Of a stretch of 64,000 nucleotides of DNA, positions 7,819 through 53,113 are shown one piece after another. A program made the translations under genes and the position numbers. How positions within the stretch are numbered: the stretch's first letter is position 1; each line of letters begins with the position of its first letter. The DNA is taken from assembly GCA_000004985.1 (NCBI GenBank), contig GG738895.1; one strand, 5' to 3'. The notes below the pieces were generated by a model. The model had not been told where the DNA came from, did not search any database, and saw only the letters and a program-made list of their open reading frames with translations. Source of the stretch: Naegleria gruberi (taxonomy: Eukaryota).

Positions 7819-7898
7819 GCAGGGGTTCCCGAGTGGTCAAAGGGGTAGACTCAAGTTCTACTGCGCAAGCTTCGTGGGTTCAAATCCCACCTTCTGCA
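7819..7898 (+). tRNA. tRNA-Leu (anticodon CAA) with long variable arm
   Basis: GCAGGGG acceptor stem, D-loop AGTGGTCAAA, anticodon loop CTCAAGT, long extra arm, T-loop GGTTCAAATCC. Followed by T-runs (ttttg, tttttcttt) consistent with Pol III termination. Confidence 0.85.
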
Positions 7899-13359: not shown

Positions 13360-13430
13360 GCGTCGATGGTTTAGTGGTAGAATACGGCGTTGCCATCGCC
13401 GTGACCCGGGTTCAATTCCCGGTCGACGCA
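13360..13430 (+). tRNA. tRNA-Gly (anticodon GCC)
   Basis: GCGTCGA acceptor, TGGTTTAGTGGTAGAAT D-arm, anticodon loop TTGCCAT, T-arm GGGTTCAATTCCC. Downstream T-run ttttacttttttcc. Confidence 0.85.
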
Positions 13431-20313: not shown

Positions 20314-20386
20314 TCCCCCTTAGCTCAGTCGGTAGAGCGTCAGACTGTTAATCTGCAGGTCGGTGGTTCGAGCCCACCAGGGGGAG
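20314..20386 (+). tRNA. tRNA-Asn (anticodon GTT)
   Basis: Acceptor TCCCCCT/AGGGGGA, D-arm GCTCAGTCGGTAGAGC, anticodon loop CTGTTAA, T-arm GGTGGTTCGAGCCCACC. Followed by TTTTTT at 20391-20396. Confidence 0.85.
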
Positions 20387-25322: not shown

Positions 25323-25395
25323 GCCCGTCTAGCTCAGTCGGTAGAGCGCAAGGCTCTTAACCTTGTGGTCGTGGGTTCGACCCCCACGGTGGGCG
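25323..25395 (+). tRNA. tRNA-Lys (anticodon CTT)
   Basis: Acceptor GCCCGTC/GGTGGGC, D-arm AGCTCAGTCGGTAGAGC, anticodon loop CTCTTAA, T-arm GTGGGTTCGACCCCCAC. Followed by TTT..TTTT. Confidence 0.85.
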
Positions 25396-35448: not shown

Positions 35449-35519
35449 CTCGAGTGCCGGGAATTGAACCCGGGTCGCCAGAGTGACAGTCTGGAATGCT
35501 ACCACTATACCACACCCGA
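35449..35519 (-). tRNA. tRNA-Asp (anticodon GTC)
   Basis: Reverse complement reads TCGGGTGTGGTATAGTGGTAGCATTCCAGACTGTCACTCTGGCGACCCGGGTTCAATTCCCGGCACTCGAG. Acceptor pairs, anticodon loop CTGTCAC. T-run (AATTTTG) downstream on the minus strand. Confidence 0.85.
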
Positions 35520-43746: not shown

Positions 43747-45986
43747 CTATTTCTTGACCTTAACGGAAGAACTTTGAGTGATGCTATCAAATGTTGGAAT
43801 GTTTCCTTGAAGACCAAACATTTGCAAAGGCAAACAACCCATATTTGCATCACTTGGAAGGTAAACAACTTGAGAAACACTCTTCATGGCTTGAATAACC
43901 ATGTCATGGTGTTTTGTCAAGAGAGCTTCTTGTTTACCAAATTCAGTGGAGCTCAAATATTCAGCTCTCTTCTTTTCAGCAAGGGCTTTAATTTCAATAG
44001 CTTTGGCTTCAGCTTCTGCTTCAATGGTGAGAGCTTCAGCTTTGGCTTTGGCAAGAGTCTTGATTTCAATAGCCTTGGTTTCAGCTAGAATGATAGTGGC
44101 ACTATTCTTGGCTTCAGTTTCAGTCTTTAATTTGAAAGCTTCGGCTGTAGCTTTGATAGAGTTGATGGAATTCAATCTTTCTTGACCAGCCAATTCAATT
44201 TCTCTTTGAGCCTCCAAGTTTGCAAGTTTAGTAGATGTTTCTGCGGTAATAATAGCTTGCTTGGAAATATTGTTGGCCAGCTCTTGATTCATAATTTGGA
44301 AGTCTTCAATACGAATATTATCAATCAAAATACCGTATTGCTTTTTGAATGAATCATGAATCTTGGAAAGAAATTCATCATGCAAGTTCTCAAAGAATTG
44401 AGGAGCAGAGGGAGGTCCATTTTCATTATGTGTTTGTTGTGTATCACCTTTGAGATCGCTTGCTGAAATAGTCTTGCTTTGAGCTAATTGATTCAATGCA
44501 GTGGATCTAACAATGGATTGGAGGGCAGCAATTGAGTTATCCTTGATAAGCTTAATTGTAGCACTTTCATTTCCGATAGTGAGCAAAGTTAACTTTGGAT
44601 CAGCAATTCTAAATGAAACAGCAGCTCTAATACCAACTTCAACAAAGTCACGGGTATCACATCTTAAGAATGGTTCCTTTGACTTGACATCTTCGATCAA
44701 TGGAATAGACATCAATTTAGTTGACATGTAGGACTCAAAAACTCTATCCAACTCATCAAAAACAAAGGTTCCAGGTCCAAGAATGTCCAGCTTACCTGCT
44801 TTGTAGGTTACACCAACTTCACCTTCATAGACAACAATACGCATTGTACTACCCAATACAATCAATTTGGTTTTGACAGGGACACATTTCTCAAAGTTAA
44901 AATCTATGCTATCAATTTCATAAACTCCTGGCTCTTGAATCAAGATTGGAGATTGTTTCCACCAACCTAATCCAATCTCACCAAGGTTAACTCTAAATCT
45001 TGTGATTGGTGGATGTGAAATCAAATTGTCAGTGGCAGATTTCAATCCAGAGAAGGTAACATTTTGATCATTGAATGTGTATAAACCTTCAGGCAAAAGA
45101 CATTGCTTGGTTCCAATAGAAGTAAGACCAATTTGACCCTTTCCTACTCTAATAATCTTAATGGTTTCATGTTGAATGAATGGTTCGTTCATTGCACACA
45201 ATCCAGAGTATGTGAACAAGGCAGAGTCAATGACATAATTACCAGGTGTCAAAAGCTTTGGAACGTTTGCTTCAATGACCTTAGCATAGTGACCTTGTGG
45301 AATTCTCAGAATGTTAATAGTTCCATGCTTGATATTTTCCTTATTCATTTCAATAGAACCACCATAATGGAATAATCTAGTATTTCTAACATGCAAGCCT
45401 TCAGCAAGAAGTAATGGTTTACCATTCAATGTAGCAAGTCCAAAATAACCTTTTTTAACTCTAATAATTTTAAGAGTTTCGTGTTCAATTTCATCACTAT
45501 TATAAATTTATAGTAAGAGAATGATAATTCAAATACTTACCTTGCAATATTATATGTAGTAGACCAGTGAGCACGAGGATTAATATTAAGATAACGACCT
45601 GGTCCAACAATTTCAACACAACCATTGTGCATAACCACTCTAATGTTACCTTGATCAATAACCTTATTACCAAGAGTTGATTTGATCACAGAAACACCCT
45701 TTTCATTAACCAAATTACAAATTTGATTAATAATCTCATCATTACTTGTTCCATTAACATTGGGTTTGACAAGTAAATTTTCCAATGATTCACAACCCAA
45801 CTCTAAACGGTTGGTAATTATGTTTCCATTTGCATGATCAAATTTGTATGGAGAAAGATCAATCTTTTCTCTGTACAAGCTTTTAGCAAGTTCATTCAAT
45901 GTTTCGTTTTTCGGATTTAGATTTACAATTGTTGCTTCTACGTTATTAACCAAATTATTATCACTGTTAGGAGAGTTTGGAATCAT
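43747..45986 (-). CDS. MVP: Major vault protein (MVP), two exons (45541-45986 and 43747-45496; 44-nt intron 45497-45540 GTAAGT...AATAG)
   Basis: Repeated MVP N-terminal repeat units (INILRIPQGHYAKVIEANVPKLLTPGNYVI; IKIIRVGKGQIGL...; ITRFRVNLGEIGL...; compare mammalian IRIPPYHYIHVLD...VEVGPKTYI). SPFH/band-7-like shoulder domain (DFVEVGIRAAVSFRIADPKLTLL). Long cap-helix coiled coil with EA-rich heptads (TIEAEAEAKAIEIKALAEKKRAEY). Exon 1 ends ...NIA with a GTAAGT donor (phase 2) and rejoins in frame. ATG at 45986. Confidence 0.75.
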
Positions 45987-46794
45987 CAAACAGGAGTGTA
46001 GGTGCTAACAAAGATGAGGCTTTTACGAGAGAGAAGGAAGGTGCTTTAGAGGCTTTTTGTTTTGATGAGCAAGATTGTTGGCTTGTCTCTTTATGGTATC
46101 GGATGGTACTGGCTTGGTAGAATGTTTAATAATAAAACTTTTGGTTCTATGAATGATCTTCTAATTGGGATTTACAATGTTGTGATGAATCAGTAAAGAG
46201 TGATTAAATGAACAATTTTGGTGATGGTAGTGGGAACTCGTAATTACATTTTTTTTAAAAAAATGTAATTTTAAAAGTAAAATTAGAATTTGCTATTATT
46301 AAGGAGACAAGCTCATTTAGAGTTTGTAGTAGATTCCTGATCAAATTGATTGATCAAAAATTAGTGGGGAAAGATTTTCTGACGATTGCTTGGTGCCATT
46401 TCTTGAAATATTGGAAAAACAAGAAAATGAATCTTTATGTTTGTACTCATCAACTCTCACGTTGGAGGAGGAGGATCTGAAATGGACTCTACAGCTGACG
46501 TCTTAATACTTATTATTAAACTTCAACTATTGGACAAGGAGTGACACAAAGGAACAATCACAAAAAATTGTTTTTATTTAAGGGAACAGGAGGTTCAATC
46601 CGAGGATCCTTAGCGGAATAATTAAGGAGTAGCAACAATTTCCACAACTTTCCGCTGCGCCTACTATAATTACAAGAATTAAAAAAACAACCTTAATAAA
46701 CCATTTATCAACTCAAAGAGAAACCGTTTGCATCAGAGGATGGAGGAAGGTCGTTTATTTTGTGCCAACTCTAAATGAGTGAGTATTCTTCAGA

Positions 46795-47796
46795 ATGTTT
46801 CTCGCTGTGATGATACTTCTCTCCATATCGATAGCCATTGAAGGAGACACTAGTGTTCACGATAATAAGGAAATTGTGTTCTATCCATTGAGAACCCATC
46901 AACAATTTGATATCCAGAATATTCCGACCTATTTTCTGGAATCTGCCTATTTTAAGGCCTATTTTGAACTCTATTATAGTGAGGATGATTTTGATTTAAT
47001 AGGAACTCATCAATTCCTTTCTGAACAAACACAAGTGAGTGAATATCCTTCCATTATTAAGAAAAACAAGCTGTTATTTCAATATGGTCTAACATGGGAT
47101 TTGACTAAGGCTCACATGAAACCAAACACTCAAAAGAATCAAACAGTTACTCTCAAATTCTATCCTCAATTCAAGTACAACATTGATCCTTACTCTGTTA
47201 GAGCCTTTTTGATAAAGCAAAGTGAAAATTTGGGAATTCAGACTCAATTCACTCCACTCTTTCCCGCTTCAGATGTTGAATCACCAACATTAGGTCCTTG
47301 GGAATGTACTTTATCTCTTCGAAATTATAACTTTGATTTGCCATTGCAATTGACAATATTTGCTTACTCAGCAGCGAGTATTGGTTATGTACCTGGAGAG
47401 GTTGTGCCAATTTACTATCCAAGGGGTGTTTCATTCTTCATGAAAGGTACATCAAATCTCAGATTAGATGTCATGTATGCTAATGCAACTGTGATAGATC
47501 CGTATGAAAGAGAGAGAGCTCCCACACTTAGTGTTAGTAGCTACAGAAAAACAGTTAACGCCCCAAGTGGTTATTTAGTGTTTACACAATTCTTTGTAAA
47601 GGAAGATTCGAATAATATCCTTGATATGGAAGAAACAAGATTATTTACCTTCAATTCAGCTCTATATGTTGGTAGTTTTACTATTGACCCCTTTTCTTTG
47701 AAGTGTGCATACGCAACCAAAGATTCAAACTTCCAAACTCTAGTTATTGATCCAACATCCTCTGTTACAATTGGCTGCCTATTCACTCACTTGTAA
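46795..47796 (+). CDS. First domain (with signal peptide) of a secreted/membrane protein built from three homologous 300-330-aa domains
   Basis: ATG at 46795, signal peptide MFLAVMILLSISIAIEG. Shares the conserved (D)PYS(V/L/Y)R.F motif and overall pattern with the 47747-48706 and 49342-50433 ORFs. Confidence 0.5.
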   Translation: MFLAVMILLSISIAIEGDTSVHDNKEIVFYPLRTHQQFDIQNIPTYFLESAYFKAYFELYYSEDDFDLIGTHQFLSEQTQVSEYPSIIKKNKLLFQYGLTWDLTKAHMKPNTQKNQTVTLKFYPQFKYNIDPYSVRAFLIKQSENLGIQTQFTPLFPASDVESPTLGPWECTLSLRNYNFDLPLQLTIFAYSAASIGYVPGEVVPIYYPRGVSFFMKGTSNLRLDVMYANATVIDPYERERAPTLSVSSYRKTVNAPSGYLVFTQFFVKEDSNNILDMEETRLFTFNSALYVGSFTIDPFSLKCAYATKDSNFQTLVIDPTSSVTIGCLFTHL

Positions 47797-48706
47797 TCAA
47801 GTAATACCAGATTCAGAATACGTTTTTGCACTTGTTGGTAGTGATGTGCCAAGAGATGAATGTCAGCTCTCTAGCTCATGTCCAATTCGTTCCTCCAGAA
47901 TTCAATCATATTCTGCATGGAAGATGCAATTACTTGTTTCCTTTGATAAAAACACCCAACTTCAAGGATCTATTTCAGTAAGCACTGGATCTTTAATAGA
48001 TTTCCCAGGCGCAACATTCTCTCCTACCAATCAGGGACCACTTACTCTTCTTGGTATTGTTTATTTCAATTTACAAAAAACAACCATCAAGAAACAACTA
48101 AATAATACAGACGAATTAAGGAATTCAATTATTGTAAGGGCTTTTACAAATCTAAGGGCACAACAAATGGAAGATGCCATGGTTCCTTATTCTCTTAGAT
48201 TATTCAAGTACAATTCGACCCAAAATTTGTTTGAATTAATTTCACAAGATGTTCCATTGGACTCTATTTCGAGTTTTTCTTTCGATTTGGAACAATTATT
48301 GGCCTCAAAAAGTCAGAAATTCACAATAGGATTGTGTACTTATAAGGGTACAAAAGGTGTAGTTGGAGATTTGGTTTATGCTCACTACCCGAGAATTGTT
48401 AATTTTTACCTTAACAACTTTGTAATCTTGTCAATTTACTTTAAAGCAGTTTTCACAACAGCAATCATGTACGAAAAGAGACCTTACTTTACAATTAATA
48501 ATTATGTTCCAAAAAATGTCAAGGGATTGAATGATTTTGTAATTTTACACAGTTTCATGCAACAAAATGGAAATGGATTGGAAACGATTGGATACGATGA
48601 TGGAAGAAAGTTTACCTTTCCAATAGATTCAATCTCAGGAGCATTTGTAGATACATCTGGTAGATCAGTAACTTTTAAATTTGAACATGTCAGATGTGTC
48701 TATTGA
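47747..48706 (+). CDS. Second homologous domain. Overlaps the end of domain 1 in the +1 frame (apparent frameshift) and has no start codon of its own.
   Basis: PYSLRLFKYNSTQNLFELISQDVPL aligns with PYSVRAFLIKQSENLGIQTQFTPL of domain 1. The frame opens only 6 nt before the domain 1 stop. No intron of plausible length explains the frame change. Confidence 0.4.
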   Translation: MIQHPLLQLAAYSLTCNQVIPDSEYVFALVGSDVPRDECQLSSSCPIRSSRIQSYSAWKMQLLVSFDKNTQLQGSISVSTGSLIDFPGATFSPTNQGPLTLLGIVYFNLQKTTIKKQLNNTDELRNSIIVRAFTNLRAQQMEDAMVPYSLRLFKYNSTQNLFELISQDVPLDSISSFSFDLEQLLASKSQKFTIGLCTYKGTKGVVGDLVYAHYPRIVNFYLNNFVILSIYFKAVFTTAIMYEKRPYFTINNYVPKNVKGLNDFVILHSFMQQNGNGLETIGYDDGRKFTFPIDSISGAFVDTSGRSVTFKFEHVRCVY

Positions 48707-49341
48707 GCCTTGTCCGAAAACGCTTTTTTTTCGAATTTTTGAAAAAGTAAACACTCACGCTTCTTTTTCGCTTTCTCTCATCACATTTTGTTTTTTGTGT
48801 GAGCGCTGAAACAAGAGGGATTCTTTTTTGTGCGAAAGCGATTTGGATATTCTTGCCAAAACAATGGCGAGTGTTTCTTCCTTTCAACTGCAAGAAGTAA
48901 AATATTTTTATGAGAAGAGAATTTCTTTCTGGTTGGTTTCGAAAGCACTTTCGAAATTAAAAAGTCTCCATCTTAAACAAACTAGTTTTCAACAACCACA
49001 ATAACACTGATCCTAAAACTTTAGGATTAAGTAGAAGGATGTATAGAGGTTACATCCATGGAATATTTCTTCTCTGGTCTCATTATCCATCAAGTATTAA
49101 TATGTTTTCGATTTAAAATTACAATAACAATTTTCGAATTCACCTTTCTTTAACTCATAAACAACAAACAGGCCATAAATAAATGTGAGAGCTTGTTTAA
49201 CCACTTTAACTTGTTTGCGTTTCATCGTGAACATGTCCACTCACACTTGTCATTTCGATTTAAAAATTACACAACAAAAGGAGAAAAGAATCCCGGCACA
49301 AGTTTTCGAGGAGCGAAAGAAGAAAAGGCTTTTGTGAACGT

Positions 49342-50433
49342 GTGCGTTTGTTTTCGATTTTCGGGCTTTCTCACATTTTCGAAAAAAAACAGGGTTTCGA
49401 CAAGGCTCATTTATTCAAAGAAACAAACTTTGAAAAATTGGAAATTAGTCAAGGTATCACTACGCTTGACAAAAACCAATTTGTAATTGATTGCTTTGAG
49501 GATGTAAGAGATGAAACTTTTGTTTTCATGTTAATTGCCAAACCATTTATTGGAATAGTTCAAAATAATACCGCATTTGGTAATGAATATCCTGTGACAA
49601 GCACGAACACTGATTCATTCACAAGCAATATTCTCCCTTCAGATTCAATCAAGATATCTTTCAATCCGAATGGTAAATCAACAGGTAGTTATGTTTTCAA
49701 ATCAGATAAGAGAAAATATTCAGATTATCAACTTCCAACACTTCAACAGCAGCCACTCTCATTACTTGGTATGTTTATTCTAAATGGGACGAACGTAAAG
49801 CTTGGTGCCAATTATTTGGATCGCCAAGTTGACATTGTTTATGAGAAGAAGACAATGGAAAGAAACTTTGATCCATATTCGTATAGATTCTTCTCTGTTG
49901 ATGATGAAAATCAAGAATTTAAGTTATTGAATTGTGAAGATGTTCCCTCTCAAGATGAATGGAAATATTCGATTGATTTGAGCAAACAACAAAATAGACA
50001 AGTTAAATTTGCAGTATTTGGATTTAATAATATAATTGGTGAAATGAATCGTGAATATTCTATTCATTACAATAGAATGCTAAAGTTTGCTCTCTCTGAT
50101 TTGAATAGTGGACTGGAAATTTCATTTTCATCTGAATTATTTCCACAAATCAATAATGGAGTGAAATTCATTTTGAAAGAGAAACAAGATGCAACTCAAT
50201 TTAATAATTTCATGAATGTGATGAGATTTACAATTGTTCAAACAGTTAGATCAGATATATTGAGTGAAAGAAAATTCCAATACAATAACAAATTGAGTGA
50301 TATGGAAGGAAATAAGATTTCAAATTTAACAAGATTACAATGTGTTTACATTACCAACTCAGGAATAATTTATGGAACAAGTTTAGTTACCATTGAATCA
50401 AATAATCAATATACTTTACATGTAATGAAATAA
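49342..50433 (+). CDS. Third homologous domain (PYSYRFFSVDDENQEF...). Probably an exon joined to domain 2 across a spacer of about 690 nt.
   Basis: No in-frame ATG at its 5' end. A CAG acceptor at about 49396-49398 would join in frame to a GT site at the end of domain 2 (…KFEH|GFDKAHLF…). Confidence 0.4.
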   Translation: MRLFSIFGLSHIFEKKQGFDKAHLFKETNFEKLEISQGITTLDKNQFVIDCFEDVRDETFVFMLIAKPFIGIVQNNTAFGNEYPVTSTNTDSFTSNILPSDSIKISFNPNGKSTGSYVFKSDKRKYSDYQLPTLQQQPLSLLGMFILNGTNVKLGANYLDRQVDIVYEKKTMERNFDPYSYRFFSVDDENQEFKLLNCEDVPSQDEWKYSIDLSKQQNRQVKFAVFGFNNIIGEMNREYSIHYNRMLKFALSDLNSGLEISFSSELFPQINNGVKFILKEKQDATQFNNFMNVMRFTIVQTVRSDILSERKFQYNNKLSDMEGNKISNLTRLQCVYITNSGIIYGTSLVTIESNNQYTLHVMK

Positions 50434-50439
50434 TATTAC

Positions 50440-50795
50440 ATGAAGAATATGATTTACAAATTGTTGAACCATCTCCAATCATTCCTCCTTCACCTCCTCA
50501 ACCAGAACACTCAATCAAACCAGATCACTCAATTAGTCCACAACCGAAACCACAACCATCACTTATTGATCCAAAACCACAAGAATCAATTAAATTGCAA
50601 CCTGTATCTTCTATAAAACCATCTCAAAGTTCAGGTATAACAAAGGATGATATTGGAAATGGATCAAAAAAAGATGAAGCAATACTCATTCTTGGTATTT
50701 GTCTTGCAATAATTACCTTATTAGCAATAGGTTCCTTACTTGTGGCCATTGTACAGTCAATGAGGTTGAAAGGCAAGTTTGCAGTCATCCTATAA
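50440..50795 (+). CDS. Probable terminal exon encoding a Pro-rich stalk, a single TM helix and a short basic tail (type I membrane anchor)
   Basis: An open frame without ATG encodes EPSPIIPPSPPQPEHSIKPDHSISPQPKPQPSLIDPKPQES...AILILGICLAIITLLAIGSLLVAIVQSMRLKGKF. Its frame differs from domain 3, so the connection is unresolved. Confidence 0.35.
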
Positions 50796-51049
50796 ATCAT
50801 CTAAAAATCAAGAAATGAAAGATCCAATGTTATGGAATATAAGTTGAATAAATTATATTAGTTGATAATGTCAATTCATCAACAGATTTTGTTTATCAAG
50901 ATTTTAAATGTTGAATTGAAAATTACAATGAAATATATTCACTATTAATAGTTGATAAATGGAGGTTCAAATAGTATTTGAAGATAATTCACAACCCAAT
51001 TTGTCCAAGTAATGGGATATGTTAGCAACACCGAAACTAGACGAAAAAA

Positions 51050-52699
51050 ATGTTAAAAAGTGGATTGTTACTTTTCACTTGTTTGTTTGTGGTTATCACT
51101 AGAGTTGAGCAAGTGTTAGCATCGACCAATGTTCAAATTGCCCACTCCCTGAACATTCCTTCAGTTTGGCAACAATTACCACTTTCCGATAATTTATCTG
51201 AAAGGGTTGTTTTAACATTTGCATTAAAAAATAGAAATGTTGAATGGTTGCAAAGAATATTCGAAAATGTGAATAATCCAATGCATAGAGATTATGAAAA
51301 ATACCTCACCATGAAACAAGTTTCCGATATAACTTCTCCTCAACAAACTAATCTCGTCATTGAATACTTGAACTCAATTCCTGACTGTTCTATATTGAAC
51401 ATTTCCAAACACGGCAATTTAATAACAGTGAAAATAAGTTTACAATCTGTAAATTTACATTTAAATGCCAAAATGAAACCATTCGTCCACAAGGAAACCA
51501 AAGAAATAATTTTCCGCTCCCTGAATGGTTTCTCTCTTCCATTGGAAATTAGTAAGATTGTGAAAACTGTTTTTGGAATTCATCATTTTCCACATGGAAA
51601 TGCAAAAAAGAAATTCACTGCTGCTCAATCTTCACATCCAATAACTCCGAAGGAAATTTGGAATAGATACAATGTCAGTTTACCAACAAGTATCAATGGA
51701 CAAAGTTCTCAGGCGATTGCTTCTCTTTTGGGACAGTTCTATAATTCAAATGATTTGAGTCAATTCCAACACATGTACAACTTGACACAAATGCAACCAA
51801 TTGTAAATGGAGATAATAATAATGGAAAACCAGGAATGGAAGCTTCTTTAGATATTCAATATATTATGGGAATTGCACAGGGAATTAATACTACAATTAA
51901 TAGTATTGCATCCAATAATATTGAAGATCCATTTGTGCAGTGGATTTCAGTAATTCAATCACAAGGAGATTCAAGTGCATGGATTCATTCAATTTCGTAT
52001 GGAGCTGTCGAGAAGGATATTCCAGCAGATGTAAAGGAAACTGTCGATCAGGAATTCCAAAAAATTGGATCAACAGGAAGAACTATATTTGTTAGTTCTG
52101 GAGATAATGGAGTCAGATGCAGTGATTATGGTGATAGATTTGAACCAGAATGGCCAACTAGTAGTCCTTTTGTTGTCTCTGTTGGAGCTACAGAATTTAA
52201 AATTAAGGGAGGAAAAATCTCAGAAATTGGAGCTGATTTCACGGGAGGTGGATTTTCAGATGCCTACAAAAGACCAAGTTATCAAGATGAAGCAGTTACT
52301 AATTATTTGAATCAAGAATCATTCCCAGATAGATCGTATTTCAATCAGAATGGTAGAATGTTTCCAGATATGACCTTAATTGGAAAAGGTTTTCAAGTAA
52401 TTCTTTCAGGAAAGGTTCAATCAGTTGATGGAACAAGTGCCAGTACACCAAGTGTAGCTGCTCTATTTTCTCTTCTCAATAATATTCGTTTCCTACAAAA
52501 TAAGAAACCAATCGGATTCCTTAATCCATGGCTCTATCAAATAGCTCCAAAAACACCAAATGCTTTCTATGATATCACAGAGGGTTATAATTCATTCGAT
52601 CCATGTCCTGGATTCTTTGCAACCAAATCATTTGATCCAGTGAGTGGTATTGGCGTACCAAACTTTGCAATTCTAAAGGATTTAATCTTGACAAAATAG
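51050..52699 (+). CDS. Sedolisin / tripeptidyl-peptidase I-like serine-carboxyl peptidase (family S53) with N-terminal propeptide and signal peptide
   Basis: Signal peptide MLKSGLLLFTCLFVVITRVEQVLA. Pro-kumamolisin-like activation domain, then catalytic domain with SGDNG and the catalytic Ser motif GTSASTPSVAALFSLLN. Intronless 549 aa. ATG at 51050. Confidence 0.75.
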   Translation: MLKSGLLLFTCLFVVITRVEQVLASTNVQIAHSLNIPSVWQQLPLSDNLSERVVLTFALKNRNVEWLQRIFENVNNPMHRDYEKYLTMKQVSDITSPQQTNLVIEYLNSIPDCSILNISKHGNLITVKISLQSVNLHLNAKMKPFVHKETKEIIFRSLNGFSLPLEISKIVKTVFGIHHFPHGNAKKKFTAAQSSHPITPKEIWNRYNVSLPTSINGQSSQAIASLLGQFYNSNDLSQFQHMYNLTQMQPIVNGDNNNGKPGMEASLDIQYIMGIAQGINTTINSIASNNIEDPFVQWISVIQSQGDSSAWIHSISYGAVEKDIPADVKETVDQEFQKIGSTGRTIFVSSGDNGVRCSDYGDRFEPEWPTSSPFVVSVGATEFKIKGGKISEIGADFTGGGFSDAYKRPSYQDEAVTNYLNQESFPDRSYFNQNGRMFPDMTLIGKGFQVILSGKVQSVDGTSASTPSVAALFSLLNNIRFLQNKKPIGFLNPWLYQIAPKTPNAFYDITEGYNSFDPCPGFFATKSFDPVSGIGVPNFAILKDLILTK

Positions 52700-53113
52700 A
52701 GAATTCCACTACTGTAGGGTCCTGAAGAAATAAAAAGAATTACACCAGCTCATCAACTGACATGGGAATTCCACATCAACACATTACCTGCAACATGCCC
52801 TAATATCTTTGGAAACATCCTCAGAAAATTGGAAGGGCTATGCATTAGGTCTGAATAATTTTGGTAGAAACCAACGTAATTCCAATAGATAGGTTGTATT
52901 TCCAAAGCAATAGCAACAATCTCTAAAAGAATGAATATTGAATTGTGGTTAAGAAAGTTTTAAATTTAATAACCAGCCAAGACCAAGTTTCAATCCTAGA
53001 AATGCTCTGTTCAAAAAAACCTCCATCATTTTAAGAACTAGGAATATGGCAAGATACTGAGAAAATATTTAGGTTTTGTATCAGTTTTTGGTTAGTCAAT
53101 AAACTGCATCCAT

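What the first reader, a model, noticed from the sequence alone, without database searches (positions are those of the whole stretch)
46795..50795. Large secreted/membrane gene made of three diverged homologous domains, with an apparent +1 frameshift, a spacer of about 690 nt and a Pro-rich stalk plus TM exon
Three 300-330-aa segments share motifs, e.g. (D)PYS(V/L/Y)R.F followed by hydrophobic and acidic patterns. This indicates internal triplication of a novel extracellular domain, with a signal peptide only on the first and a stalk plus TM anchor only after the third. Domain 1 and domain 2 overlap in different frames with no plausible intron, so this is a frameshift, pseudogenisation or sequencing error. 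Domains 2 and 3 are separated by about 690 nt, far longer than any other intron here. The terminal stalk/TM exon is in yet another frame. The family itself has no recognisable homologs that I can name.
Basis: seen in the sequence. Interest (0 to 1): 0.5.

Follow-up and report, generated by a model that had tools for sequence, protein, structure and literature searches.

The report
Transposon-split, frameshifted Naegleria surface-protein pseudogene
This stretch of the Naegleria gruberi genome is one old gene for a three-module cell-surface protein, broken by a 704-base mobile-element insertion and two small deletions and currently annotated as three separate genes; it is an ordinary decaying gene, and its main value is as an annotation correction.

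Summary
Three ~300-aa homologous units, a signal peptide before the first and a Pro-rich stalk plus one TM helix after the third lie in four reading-frame pieces at 46795-50795. The window is Naegleria gruberi NEG-M. GenBank annotates the pieces as three 'predicted proteins', NAEGRDRAFT_72164/72165/72166.

- **Spacer:** it is not an intron. It is a 704-bp insertion (48705-49408) with 43-44-nt terminal inverted repeats and a 3-bp ATT target-site duplication. It is about 60-fold enriched in TTTCGA. Removing it rejoins units 2 and 3 in frame (…RCVY-L-FKETNF…).
- **Intact paralog:** the repaired 1097-aa protein aligns colinearly in a single HSP (E 3e-51) with NAEGRDRAFT_69472 (1183 aa), which lies on another scaffold.
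- **Related strain:** a metagenome contig (~97% identical) has the same insertion. It reads through the unit1/unit2 junction, so NEG-M carries a 2-bp AC deletion there. That contig has its own TGG>TGA nonsense codon.
- **Constraint:** pN/pS is 0.44, against 0 for the neighbouring sedolisin gene.

Best reading: a transposon-disrupted, decaying pseudogene of a small Naegleria-type orphan family of type I membrane proteins. The unit fold is only weakly assigned, as a ZU5/GAIN-like beta-sandwich. Interest is low to moderate.

The parts
46795..46845 (+). Start codon and predicted signal peptide (MFLAVMILLSISIAIEG)
   Evidence: translation. It is the only hydrophobic N-terminus among the pieces. The paralog P0012 and the relative P0013 also start with a signal-like segment. 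The cleavage site is inferred, not computed.
46846..47766 (+). Unit 1 (frame 1), ending ...FSLKCAY plus linker ...IDPTSSV; annotated as NAEGRDRAFT_72164 / D2VT40
47766..47770 (+). Lesion J1: 2-bp (AC) deletion relative to the related strain (GTTACAATT here, GTTACACAATT in L002). It moves the frame from 1 to 2 and creates the TAA at 47794-47796.
   Evidence: L002 reads ...TSSVTQLAAYSLTCNQ... in one frame.
47771..48704 (+). Unit 2 (frame 2), ending ...FEHVRCVY. Only its C-terminal 179 aa are annotated (NAEGRDRAFT_72165 / D2VT41).
   Evidence: It is the reciprocal best match of unit 2 of the paralog (103 bits).
48702..48704 (.). Left copy of the 3-bp target-site duplication, ATT. T48704 plus the first two bases (GA) of the insert form ORF2's TGA stop.
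48705..49408 (.). 704-bp non-autonomous TIR element (MITE-like insertion). The TIRs are 48705-48747 and 49366-49408. It contains 10 TTTCGA motifs and has no long ORF.
   Evidence: -: 44-nt inverted repeat, 77% complementary.
- the first 15 nt, GAGCCTTGTCCGAAA, are perfect in L002.
- TTTCGA at 14.2/kb against 0.24/kb in the rest of the window, and CpG about 3-fold enriched.
- excision restores the frame.
- the paralog is continuous across the site.
49409..49411 (.). Right copy of the target-site duplication, ATT
49412..50412 (+). Unit 3 (frame 1), LFKETNF...LTRLQCVY plus linker ...SLVTIESNNQY. It is annotated from an internal Met as NAEGRDRAFT_72166 / D2VT42.
   Evidence: It is the reciprocal best match of paralog unit 3 (70.5 bits).
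50413..50417 (+). Lesion J3: inferred 1-nt deletion (for example one T of ACTTTT), shifting the frame from 1 to 0. The frame-1 TAA at 50431-50433 follows.
   Evidence: three-frame translation. The frame-0 peptide YFTCNEIILHEEYDLQIV is homologous to the linker element YSLTCNQVIPDSEYVFALV that follows the other units. It could not be checked in a second strain.
50415..50465 (+). Terminal linker element (FTCNEIILHEEYDLQIV), frame 0
50466..50633 (+). Pro-rich stalk (EPSPIIPPSPPQPEHSIKPDHSISPQPKPQPSLIDPKPQ...)
   Evidence: It aligns with the Pro-rich stretch of P0012.
50679..50753 (+). Single transmembrane helix (AILILGICLAIITLLAIGSLLVAIV)
   Evidence: It is the only 19-residue window with Kyte-Doolittle mean above 1.8 (peak 2.9).
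50754..50795 (+). Short basic cytoplasmic tail (QSMRLKGKFAVIL) and TAA stop

Best explanation
The region is the remnant of a single intronless Naegleria gruberi gene for a type I membrane protein of about 1100 aa. Its layout is: signal peptide, three diverged ~300-aa beta-rich ectodomain units, Pro-rich stalk, one TM helix and a short tail.

- **Order of events (inferred):** a 704-bp non-autonomous DNA transposon with terminal inverted repeats inserted three codons after the end of unit 2. It duplicated ATT, and its first bases created an in-frame TGA. This happened before NEG-M and a ~97%-identical relative separated.
- **After the insertion:** each lineage picked up its own lesions. NEG-M has a 2-bp deletion at the unit1/unit2 linker and a 1-nt deletion at the unit3/stalk linker. 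The relative has a TGG>TGA nonsense codon in unit 2.
- **Present state:** the locus is a young pseudogene. An intact paralog, NAEGRDRAFT_69472, presumably carries the family's function. The three GenBank gene models here are fragments of one dead gene.
- **Shown:** the homology, the frames, the TIR/TSD, the in-frame excision, the colinearity with the paralog and the strain comparison.
- **Inferred:** that the insert is a transposon family member, that the indels are real rather than assembly errors, that no functional product is made, and that the intact protein is a surface adhesion or ligand-binding molecule.
For: - **Organism and annotation:** neighbouring ORFs are identical to N. gruberi NEG-M proteins. 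ORF1, part of ORF2 and part of ORF3 are NAEGRDRAFT_72164/72165/72166.
- **One gene:**
  - The repaired 1097-aa protein aligns with NAEGRDRAFT_69472 in one HSP (query 102-1029, E 3e-51) across all three junctions.
  - Units 2 and 3 are reciprocal best matches of paralog units 2 and 3.
  - In contig L002, unit 1 runs into unit 2 in one ORF.
- **Insertion:**
  - It has a 44-nt TIR, with the first 15 nt perfect in L002.
  - It is flanked by an ATT duplication, and excision gives CVY-L-FKETNF in frame.
  - That restores the C-x-Y end motif and matches the paralog's CVYVLKSEN.
  - TTTCGA is about 60-fold enriched inside it.
- **Decay:**
  - The lesions are lineage-specific.
  - There are 13 nonsynonymous and 8 synonymous differences (pN/pS 0.44), against 0 and 10 in the adjacent sedolisin.
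- **Not an intron:** the local intron is 50 nt and runs GTAAGT...TAG. Only a poor GTCTAT donor would be in frame across the insert.
Against: - No second copy of the 704-bp element was found in the 64-kb window, in JGI metagenomes or in IMG/VR. Its repetitive, mobile nature is therefore inferred from structure only, because the rest of the N. gruberi genome could not be searched.
- No orthologous empty site was found; the related strain is also filled.
- The J1 and J3 indels in NEG-M could be assembly errors, because reads were not available.
- All ORF pieces are still fully open, and pN/pS of 0.44 is below 1 (not significantly), so some residual constraint or expression of unit 1 as a secreted fragment is not excluded.
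- All three lesions fall in inter-unit linkers, which is unexplained.
Confidence: 0.8

Rival explanations
1. The gene is functional. The two small frameshifts are errors of the draft assembly, and the 704-bp element is removed from the transcript as a transposon-derived intron (an 'introner'-type event).
For: All four pieces remain free of in-frame stops over about 1090 codons. A GT(48698)...AG(49404) interval of 707 nt, or GT(48698)...AG(49392) of 695 nt, would be in frame (my reading). pN/pS is 0.44, below 1. The insertion is retained in two strains.
Against: The only in-frame donor is GTCTAT, whereas the local intron uses GTAAGT and is 50 nt long. Splicing there would destroy the conserved C-x-Y motif (RC|AH instead of RCVY). 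The element's ends carry no splice signals. The related strain has an independent nonsense codon in unit 2, so the gene is broken there regardless of splicing. Two assembly indel errors within 3.3 kb would be unusual.
Confidence: 0.07
2. There are three independent genes, as currently annotated (NAEGRDRAFT_72164, 72165, 72166), each encoding a single-unit protein.
For: This is the GenBank/JGI annotation. A single-unit family member exists (P0013, 524 aa). ORF1 by itself has a start codon, a signal peptide and a stop codon.
Against: Models 72165 and 72166 start at internal Met residues in the middle of a unit and lack a signal peptide. Units 1 and 2 form one ORF in the related strain. The stalk and TM are left unannotated. 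A truncated secreted unit-1 protein remains possible as a by-product.
Confidence: 0.06
3. Programmed ribosomal frameshifting joins the pieces during translation.
For: Both frameshifts lie at equivalent positions of the repeat unit, in the linker between two conserved Cys residues.
Against: The two shifts go in opposite directions (frame 1 to 2 and frame 1 to 0). J1 is simply a 2-bp deletion that is absent from the related strain, which is in frame there. No shared slippery motif is present. The paralog needs no frameshift.
Confidence: 0.01

Closest known systems
NAEGRDRAFT_69472 (XP_002675378.1, UniProt D2VKQ1), N. gruberi 'predicted protein', 1183 aa
   Same: It has a signal peptide, three homologous units in the same order, the same C-x-[YF] ... 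[YF]-x-L-x-C ... D-x-E-[YF]-x-F-x-L-[VI] linkers, a Pro-rich stalk and a single TM. It is colinear with the repaired window protein (E 3e-51, 25% identity).
   Different: It is intact as one ORF product. It has an extra ~110-aa beta-rich domain between stalk and TM and a longer cytoplasmic tail. Its unit 3 lacks the DPYSxR motif. It is uncharacterised, so it gives no functional information.
Miniature inverted-repeat transposable elements (non-autonomous class II DNA transposons) inserted in coding exons
   Same: It is short (704 bp), has no transposase ORF, has terminal inverted repeats and a short target-site duplication, and contains internal repeated short motifs (TTTCGA). The insertion creates a premature stop.
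   Different: A multi-copy family and an autonomous partner were not demonstrated. The ATT duplication does not fit the TWA target of PIF/Harbinger (Tourist-type) elements or the TA of Tc1/mariner (Stowaway-type) elements; these target preferences are from my own knowledge. The superfamily is therefore unassigned.
ZU5 domains (ankyrin, UNC5, FIIND of NLRP1/CARD8) and subdomain B of GAIN domains of adhesion GPCRs
   Different: The model is of mediocre quality (pLDDT 63.5, pTM 0.61). Foldseek finds nothing significant. There is no sequence similarity to PDB chains or to Pfam families. No conserved HL(S/T) or HFS autoproteolysis motif is present among the seven units. This is a resemblance of fold class at most, not membership.

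Membership tests
Non-autonomous TIR (class II) transposon / MITE | Terminal inverted repeats at both ends | tested here: met
   Arms at 48704-48747 and 49366-49409, 44 nt and 77% complementary. The first 15 nt are perfect in strain L002.
Non-autonomous TIR (class II) transposon / MITE | Target-site duplication directly flanking the TIRs | tested here: met
   ATT at 48702-48704 and at 49409-49411. Removing the element plus one ATT restores the reading frame and the conserved CVY motif.
Non-autonomous TIR (class II) transposon / MITE | Small size and no transposase gene | tested here: met
   The element is 704 bp. Only short ORFs of 50-97 aa overlap it. No Rfam hit.
Non-autonomous TIR (class II) transposon / MITE | Several copies in the genome | tested here: inconclusive
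   No other copy in the 64-kb window, in JGI metagenomes or in IMG/VR.
Non-autonomous TIR (class II) transposon / MITE | An empty (uninterrupted) site exists | tested here: inconclusive
   The paralogous site in NAEGRDRAFT_69472 is continuous at protein level (CVYVLKSEN). The only orthologous sequence found (L002) also carries the element.
PIF/Harbinger (Tourist-like) MITE | 3-bp TSD of the form TWA (TTA/TAA); this rule is from my own knowledge | tested here: not met
   The TSD is ATT. No shift of the boundaries gives TTA or TAA on both sides (my reading).
Unitary/duplicated pseudogene | Disabling lesions in a sequence otherwise homologous to an intact gene | tested here: met
   A 2-bp deletion, an insertion with an in-frame TGA and a 1-nt deletion. 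The paralog is intact.
Unitary/duplicated pseudogene | Independent lesions in related lineages / relaxed constraint | tested here: met
   L002 lacks the J1 deletion but has TGG>TGA at window 47918-47920. pN/pS is 0.44 (13 N, 8 S) against 0 N, 10 S in the neighbouring gene. The counts are small, so pN/pS is not distinguishable from 1.
Unitary/duplicated pseudogene | No functional transcript or protein | not testable with these tools
   No RNA-seq or proteome data are accessible. No paper mentions these locus tags.
Spliceosomal intron (for the 704-bp spacer) | Canonical GT...AG boundaries that restore the frame, with size typical of the genome | tested here: not met
   The only in-frame donor is GTCTAT, and the conserved Tyr codon would be lost. 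The local intron at 45490-45539 (minus strand) is 50 nt and runs GTAAGT...TAG.
ZU5 / GAIN-B autoproteolytic beta-sandwich | Fold similarity | tested here: inconclusive
ZU5 / GAIN-B autoproteolytic beta-sandwich | Conserved cleavage motif (HL-S/T in GPS, HFS/SFS in ZU5-type); the motifs are from my own knowledge | tested here: not met
   The invariant columns among the seven units are only G, Y, P, F and C. There is no conserved His-Leu/Phe-Ser/Thr.

The most novel reading that the evidence does not exclude
The 704-bp TIR element could be a transposon-derived intron ('introner'-like) that is spliced out of the transcript. In that case a surface-protein gene in a heterolobosean would have gained an intron by DNA-transposon insertion and would still be expressed in some strains. 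The NEG-M indels would then be assembly errors or a lab-strain loss.
Probability: 0.04. Interest if true: 0.6.

Novelty: new member of a known kind. Interest (0 to 1): 0.25.

Why it matters
The main value is as an annotation correction. Three N. gruberi 'predicted proteins' (NAEGRDRAFT_72164/72165/72166, UniProt D2VT40/41/42) are fragments of one transposon-disrupted pseudogene and should not be counted as genes or as orphan families.

The analysis also does three smaller things:
- It defines a small lineage-restricted family of multi-unit type I surface proteins. The intact member is NAEGRDRAFT_69472, and there is a single-unit relative in a metagenome.
- It gives a clean, datable example of a MITE-like element with a 3-bp ATT duplication in Naegleria, a genus whose mobile elements are little described.
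- It shows how fast a gene decays after insertion, since two strains carry independent secondary lesions.

None of this challenges current understanding.

Tried and rejected
- **Word-indexed protein searches:** the search with the repaired 1097-aa protein returned nothing. With the 7-unit profile it returned only self fragments. With the C-terminal 254 aa it returned only P0009. The tool missed even identical sequences and the paralog, so these negatives are not evidence of absence. The exhaustive profile search is the valid one.
- **Pfam:** no family for the three units, P0012 or P0013.
- **PDB by sequence:** nothing.
- **Rfam on 46000-51100:** nothing.
- **JGI metagenomes:** no relative of the protein and no copy of the TIR. 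IMG/VR has no copy of the TIR.
- **Exact-product look-ups:** ORF1, P0012 and the tail ORF found no contig. J3 could therefore not be checked in a second strain, and the paralog's DNA could not be read.
- **Structure prediction:** AlphaFold on unit 3 with a 3-sequence alignment failed (pLDDT 28). The afdb50 library was unavailable.
- **Tiny introns at J1 or J3, rejected:** the candidate GTAAT...AG stretches are 18-24 nt and multiples of three, so they neither fit a spliceosome nor fix the frame (my reading).
- **TA (Tc1/mariner) and TWA (Harbinger) target-site readings, rejected:** both require mismatched termini.
- **Literature searches:** nothing specific on Naegleria MITEs or TIR transposons, or on these locus tags.
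Full report
**1. Where we are.**
- The window is 33% G+C and gene-dense, with scattered tRNA genes and eukaryotic domains such as RGS, C2 and LRR_6.
- Five of ten ORFs looked up are letter-for-letter identical to Naegleria gruberi NEG-M proteins on a 333,733-bp scaffold. For example, the sedolisin at 51050-52699 is XP_002672763 / NAEGRDRAFT_72167.
- A genuine intron next door, at 45490-45539 on the minus strand, is 50 nt long with GTAAGT...TAG boundaries.

**2. The observation.** The region contains four open pieces:
- ORF1, 46795-47796, frame 1, 333 aa, with the signal-like start MFLAVMILLSISIAIEG.
- ORF2, 47747-48706, frame 2, 319 aa.
- ORF3, 49342-50433, frame 1, 363 aa.
- A frame-0 stretch, 50406-50795, encoding a Pro-rich stalk, one strongly hydrophobic 25-residue helix and a short basic tail.

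The three large pieces are homologous at about 24% identity (BLASTP E 4e-5, 4e-10 and 0.005). They share DPYSxRxF, DVP, YPRxVxF, RxFxF and a terminal C-x-[YF]. With a stop-codon frequency of 0.074, an open run of 319 codons has a chance probability of about 2.5e-11.

**3. The 'spacer' is an insertion, not an intron.**
- The stretch between ORF2 and the homologous part of ORF3 is bounded by inverted repeats: TGAGCCTTGTCCGAAAACGCTTTTTTTTCGAA... at 48704-48747 and its complement at 49366-49409 (44 nt, 77%).
- Immediately outside the GAGCC termini, the trinucleotide ATT occurs on both sides (48702-48704 and 49409-49411).
- ORF2's stop codon TGA is made of the flanking T plus the first two bases of the repeat.
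- Deleting 48705-49411, which is the 704-bp element plus one ATT, joins ORF2 and ORF3 in frame as ...FKFEHVRCVY-L-FKETNFEKLEISQG.... This recreates the C-x-Y motif that ends every unit.
- The insert is compositionally foreign. It holds ten TTTCGA motifs (14.2 per kb, against 0.24 per kb in the rest of the window) and has three-fold more CpG.
- It has no long ORF and matches no Rfam family.
- A splicing alternative exists only with a poor donor, GTCTAT at 48698. It would remove the conserved Tyr, and it is unlike the local 50-nt GTAAGT intron.

**4. It was one gene.** An exhaustive profile search of 1.84 billion representative proteins with the three units found only five proteins:
- Three are the GenBank models for this very locus: NAEGRDRAFT_72164 equals ORF1, 72165 is the last 179 aa of ORF2, and 72166 is the last 301 aa of ORF3.
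- The fourth is NAEGRDRAFT_69472 (D2VKQ1, 1183 aa, on another scaffold). It has a signal peptide, three units, a Pro-rich stalk, an extra domain, a TM helix and a tail.
- The fifth is a 524-aa metagenomic protein (P0013) with a signal peptide, one unit, the same extra domain and a TM helix. Its contig has 41% G+C, so it comes from another organism.

The repaired 1097-aa window protein aligns with NAEGRDRAFT_69472 in a single HSP from residue 102 to 1029 (E 3e-51), straight through both frameshift points and the insertion site. At the site, CVYLFKETN--FEKLEIS...FVIDCFEDVRDETFVFMLIAKPF lines up with CVYVLKSENSQYSIIELS...YQLDCSEDVRDDEFVFMLVGKQF. Units 2 and 3 are reciprocal best matches of the paralog's units 2 and 3 (103 and 70.5 bits). 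The triplication therefore predates the duplication that produced the two genes.

**5. A second strain dates the lesions.** A metagenome (ENA ERZ929261) contains a close relative of NEG-M. Contig L001 matches 50958-53052 at 98.8%, and contig L002 matches 47291-50022 at about 97%. L002 shows the following:
- It carries the same insertion at the same site with the same ATT flanks. Its right terminus has one more G, which makes the first 15 nt of the repeats perfect. The insertion is therefore older than the split.
- At the unit1/unit2 junction it reads GTTACACAATT where NEG-M has GTTACAATT. The translation ...CAYATKDSNFQTLVIDPTSSVTQLAAYSLTCNQVIPDSEYV... runs from unit 1 into unit 2 in one frame.
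- It has its own nonsense mutation, TGG>TGA, at window 47918-47920.
- Inside the element the two strains differ by a ~62-bp inversion and by 6-, 1- and 12-bp indels.

Over 670 comparable codons there are 13 nonsynonymous and 8 synonymous differences (pN/pS 0.44). The neighbouring sedolisin has 0 and 10. Independent disabling mutations plus relaxed constraint are the signature of a pseudogene.

**6. The third junction.**
- ORF3's frame ends ...SLVTIESNNQYTLHVMK*. Frame 0 reads ...YFTCNEIILHEEYDLQIVEPSP... from 50406.
- FTCNEIILHEEYDLQIV is the same linker element that follows units 1 and 2 (YSLTCNQVIPDSEYVFALV and FVIDCFEDVRDETFVFML) and the unit of P0013. It is therefore coding sequence reached by a frameshift, not a separate exon.
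- One missing nucleotide within 50413-50417, for example one T of a T run, restores ...NNQYTFTCNE....
- No contig of the related strain covering this point could be retrieved. Whether this lesion is private to NEG-M is unknown.

**7. What the protein was.**
- No Pfam family and no PDB sequence relative was found.
- AlphaFold with only the three window units failed (pLDDT 28).
- With seven units it gave an all-beta model of moderate quality (pLDDT 63.5, pTM 0.61, residues ~40-250 mostly above 70).
- Foldseek finds nothing significant, and no autoproteolysis motif is conserved.
- I therefore describe the unit only as a beta-sandwich ectodomain, possibly ZU5/GAIN-like.
- The architecture is a signal peptide, repeated beta-rich units each closed by a Cys...Cys linker, eight N-x-S/T sites, a Pro-rich stalk, a single TM helix and a short tail. 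By inference this is a surface adhesion or ligand-binding protein. That functional statement is weak.

**8. Verdict.** The finding is real and the single-gene, triplicated-domain idea is right.
- The odd features are the scars of pseudogenisation: a MITE-like insertion and two small deletions. They are not exotic gene structure.
- **Transposon:** its superfamily is unassigned. The 3-bp ATT duplication does not fit Harbinger's TWA or mariner's TA (my knowledge of those rules). Its copy number is untested because the rest of the genome was out of reach.
- **Unexplained:** all three lesions sit in the short inter-unit linkers, which has a chance of about 0.001-0.003 if placement were uniform. The related strain's different pattern suggests coincidence.
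- **Scores:** interest is low to moderate, and novelty is a new member of known kinds.

Noticed in passing
window 48884-48945 versus L002 1603-1664: Inside the inserted element, a ~62-bp segment is inverted between NEG-M and the related strain (98% identical in reverse orientation). It is flanked by short imperfect inverted repeats around TTTCGAAAG. The two copies also differ by 6-, 1- and 12-bp indels.
   Followed up: partly
window 47766-47770, 48705, 50413-50417: All three lesions of the gene fall in the short linker between the unit-final C-x-Y and the next x-L-x-C element. This linker is about 10-14% of the length, so the chance is about 0.001-0.003 if placement were uniform. No mechanism was found. 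The related strain's nonsense codon lies outside the linker.
   Followed up: partly
window 46795-50433 (GenBank models NAEGRDRAFT_72164, 72165, 72166): The public annotation splits the locus into three 'predicted proteins'. Two of them start at internal methionines. The stalk/TM part (50415-50795) is not annotated at all.
   Followed up: yes
window 51050-52699 and L001: The neighbouring sedolisin (Pro-kumamolisin activation domain plus S8/S53 peptidase; NAEGRDRAFT_72167) is under strong purifying selection between the two strains. It has 10 synonymous and 0 nonsynonymous differences, and indels occur only in the flanking non-coding DNA.
   Followed up: yes
window 43747-45989, minus strand: An SPFH/Band-7 domain gene is split by a 50-nt GTAAGT...TAG intron at 45490-45539. 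Its N-terminal part contains several repeats of a ~45-aa motif (…G.Y.I….F.YSG…). I used it only as a local intron reference.
   Followed up: partly
L003 (ENA ERZ27315067, contig k141_1396414, 2166 bp), gene 302-1876: A single-unit member of the same family (P0013, 524 aa) has an extra ~110-aa beta-rich domain before the TM, shared with NAEGRDRAFT_69472. It lies on a 41% G+C contig, so the family extends beyond N. gruberi to an unidentified organism.
   Followed up: partly
tool behaviour: The word-indexed protein search and the exact-product contig look-up both missed sequences that are demonstrably in the collection, namely ORF1 (which is P0010) and P0012. Their negative results for AT-rich, low-complexity eukaryotic queries should not be read as absence.
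   Followed up: yes
window 7819-7898, 13360-13430, 20314-20386, 25323-25395, 35449-35519: Five dispersed tRNA genes (Leu-CAA, Gly-GCC, Asn-GTT, Lys-CTT, Asp-GTC) lie between protein-coding genes. None is near the finding.
   Followed up: no
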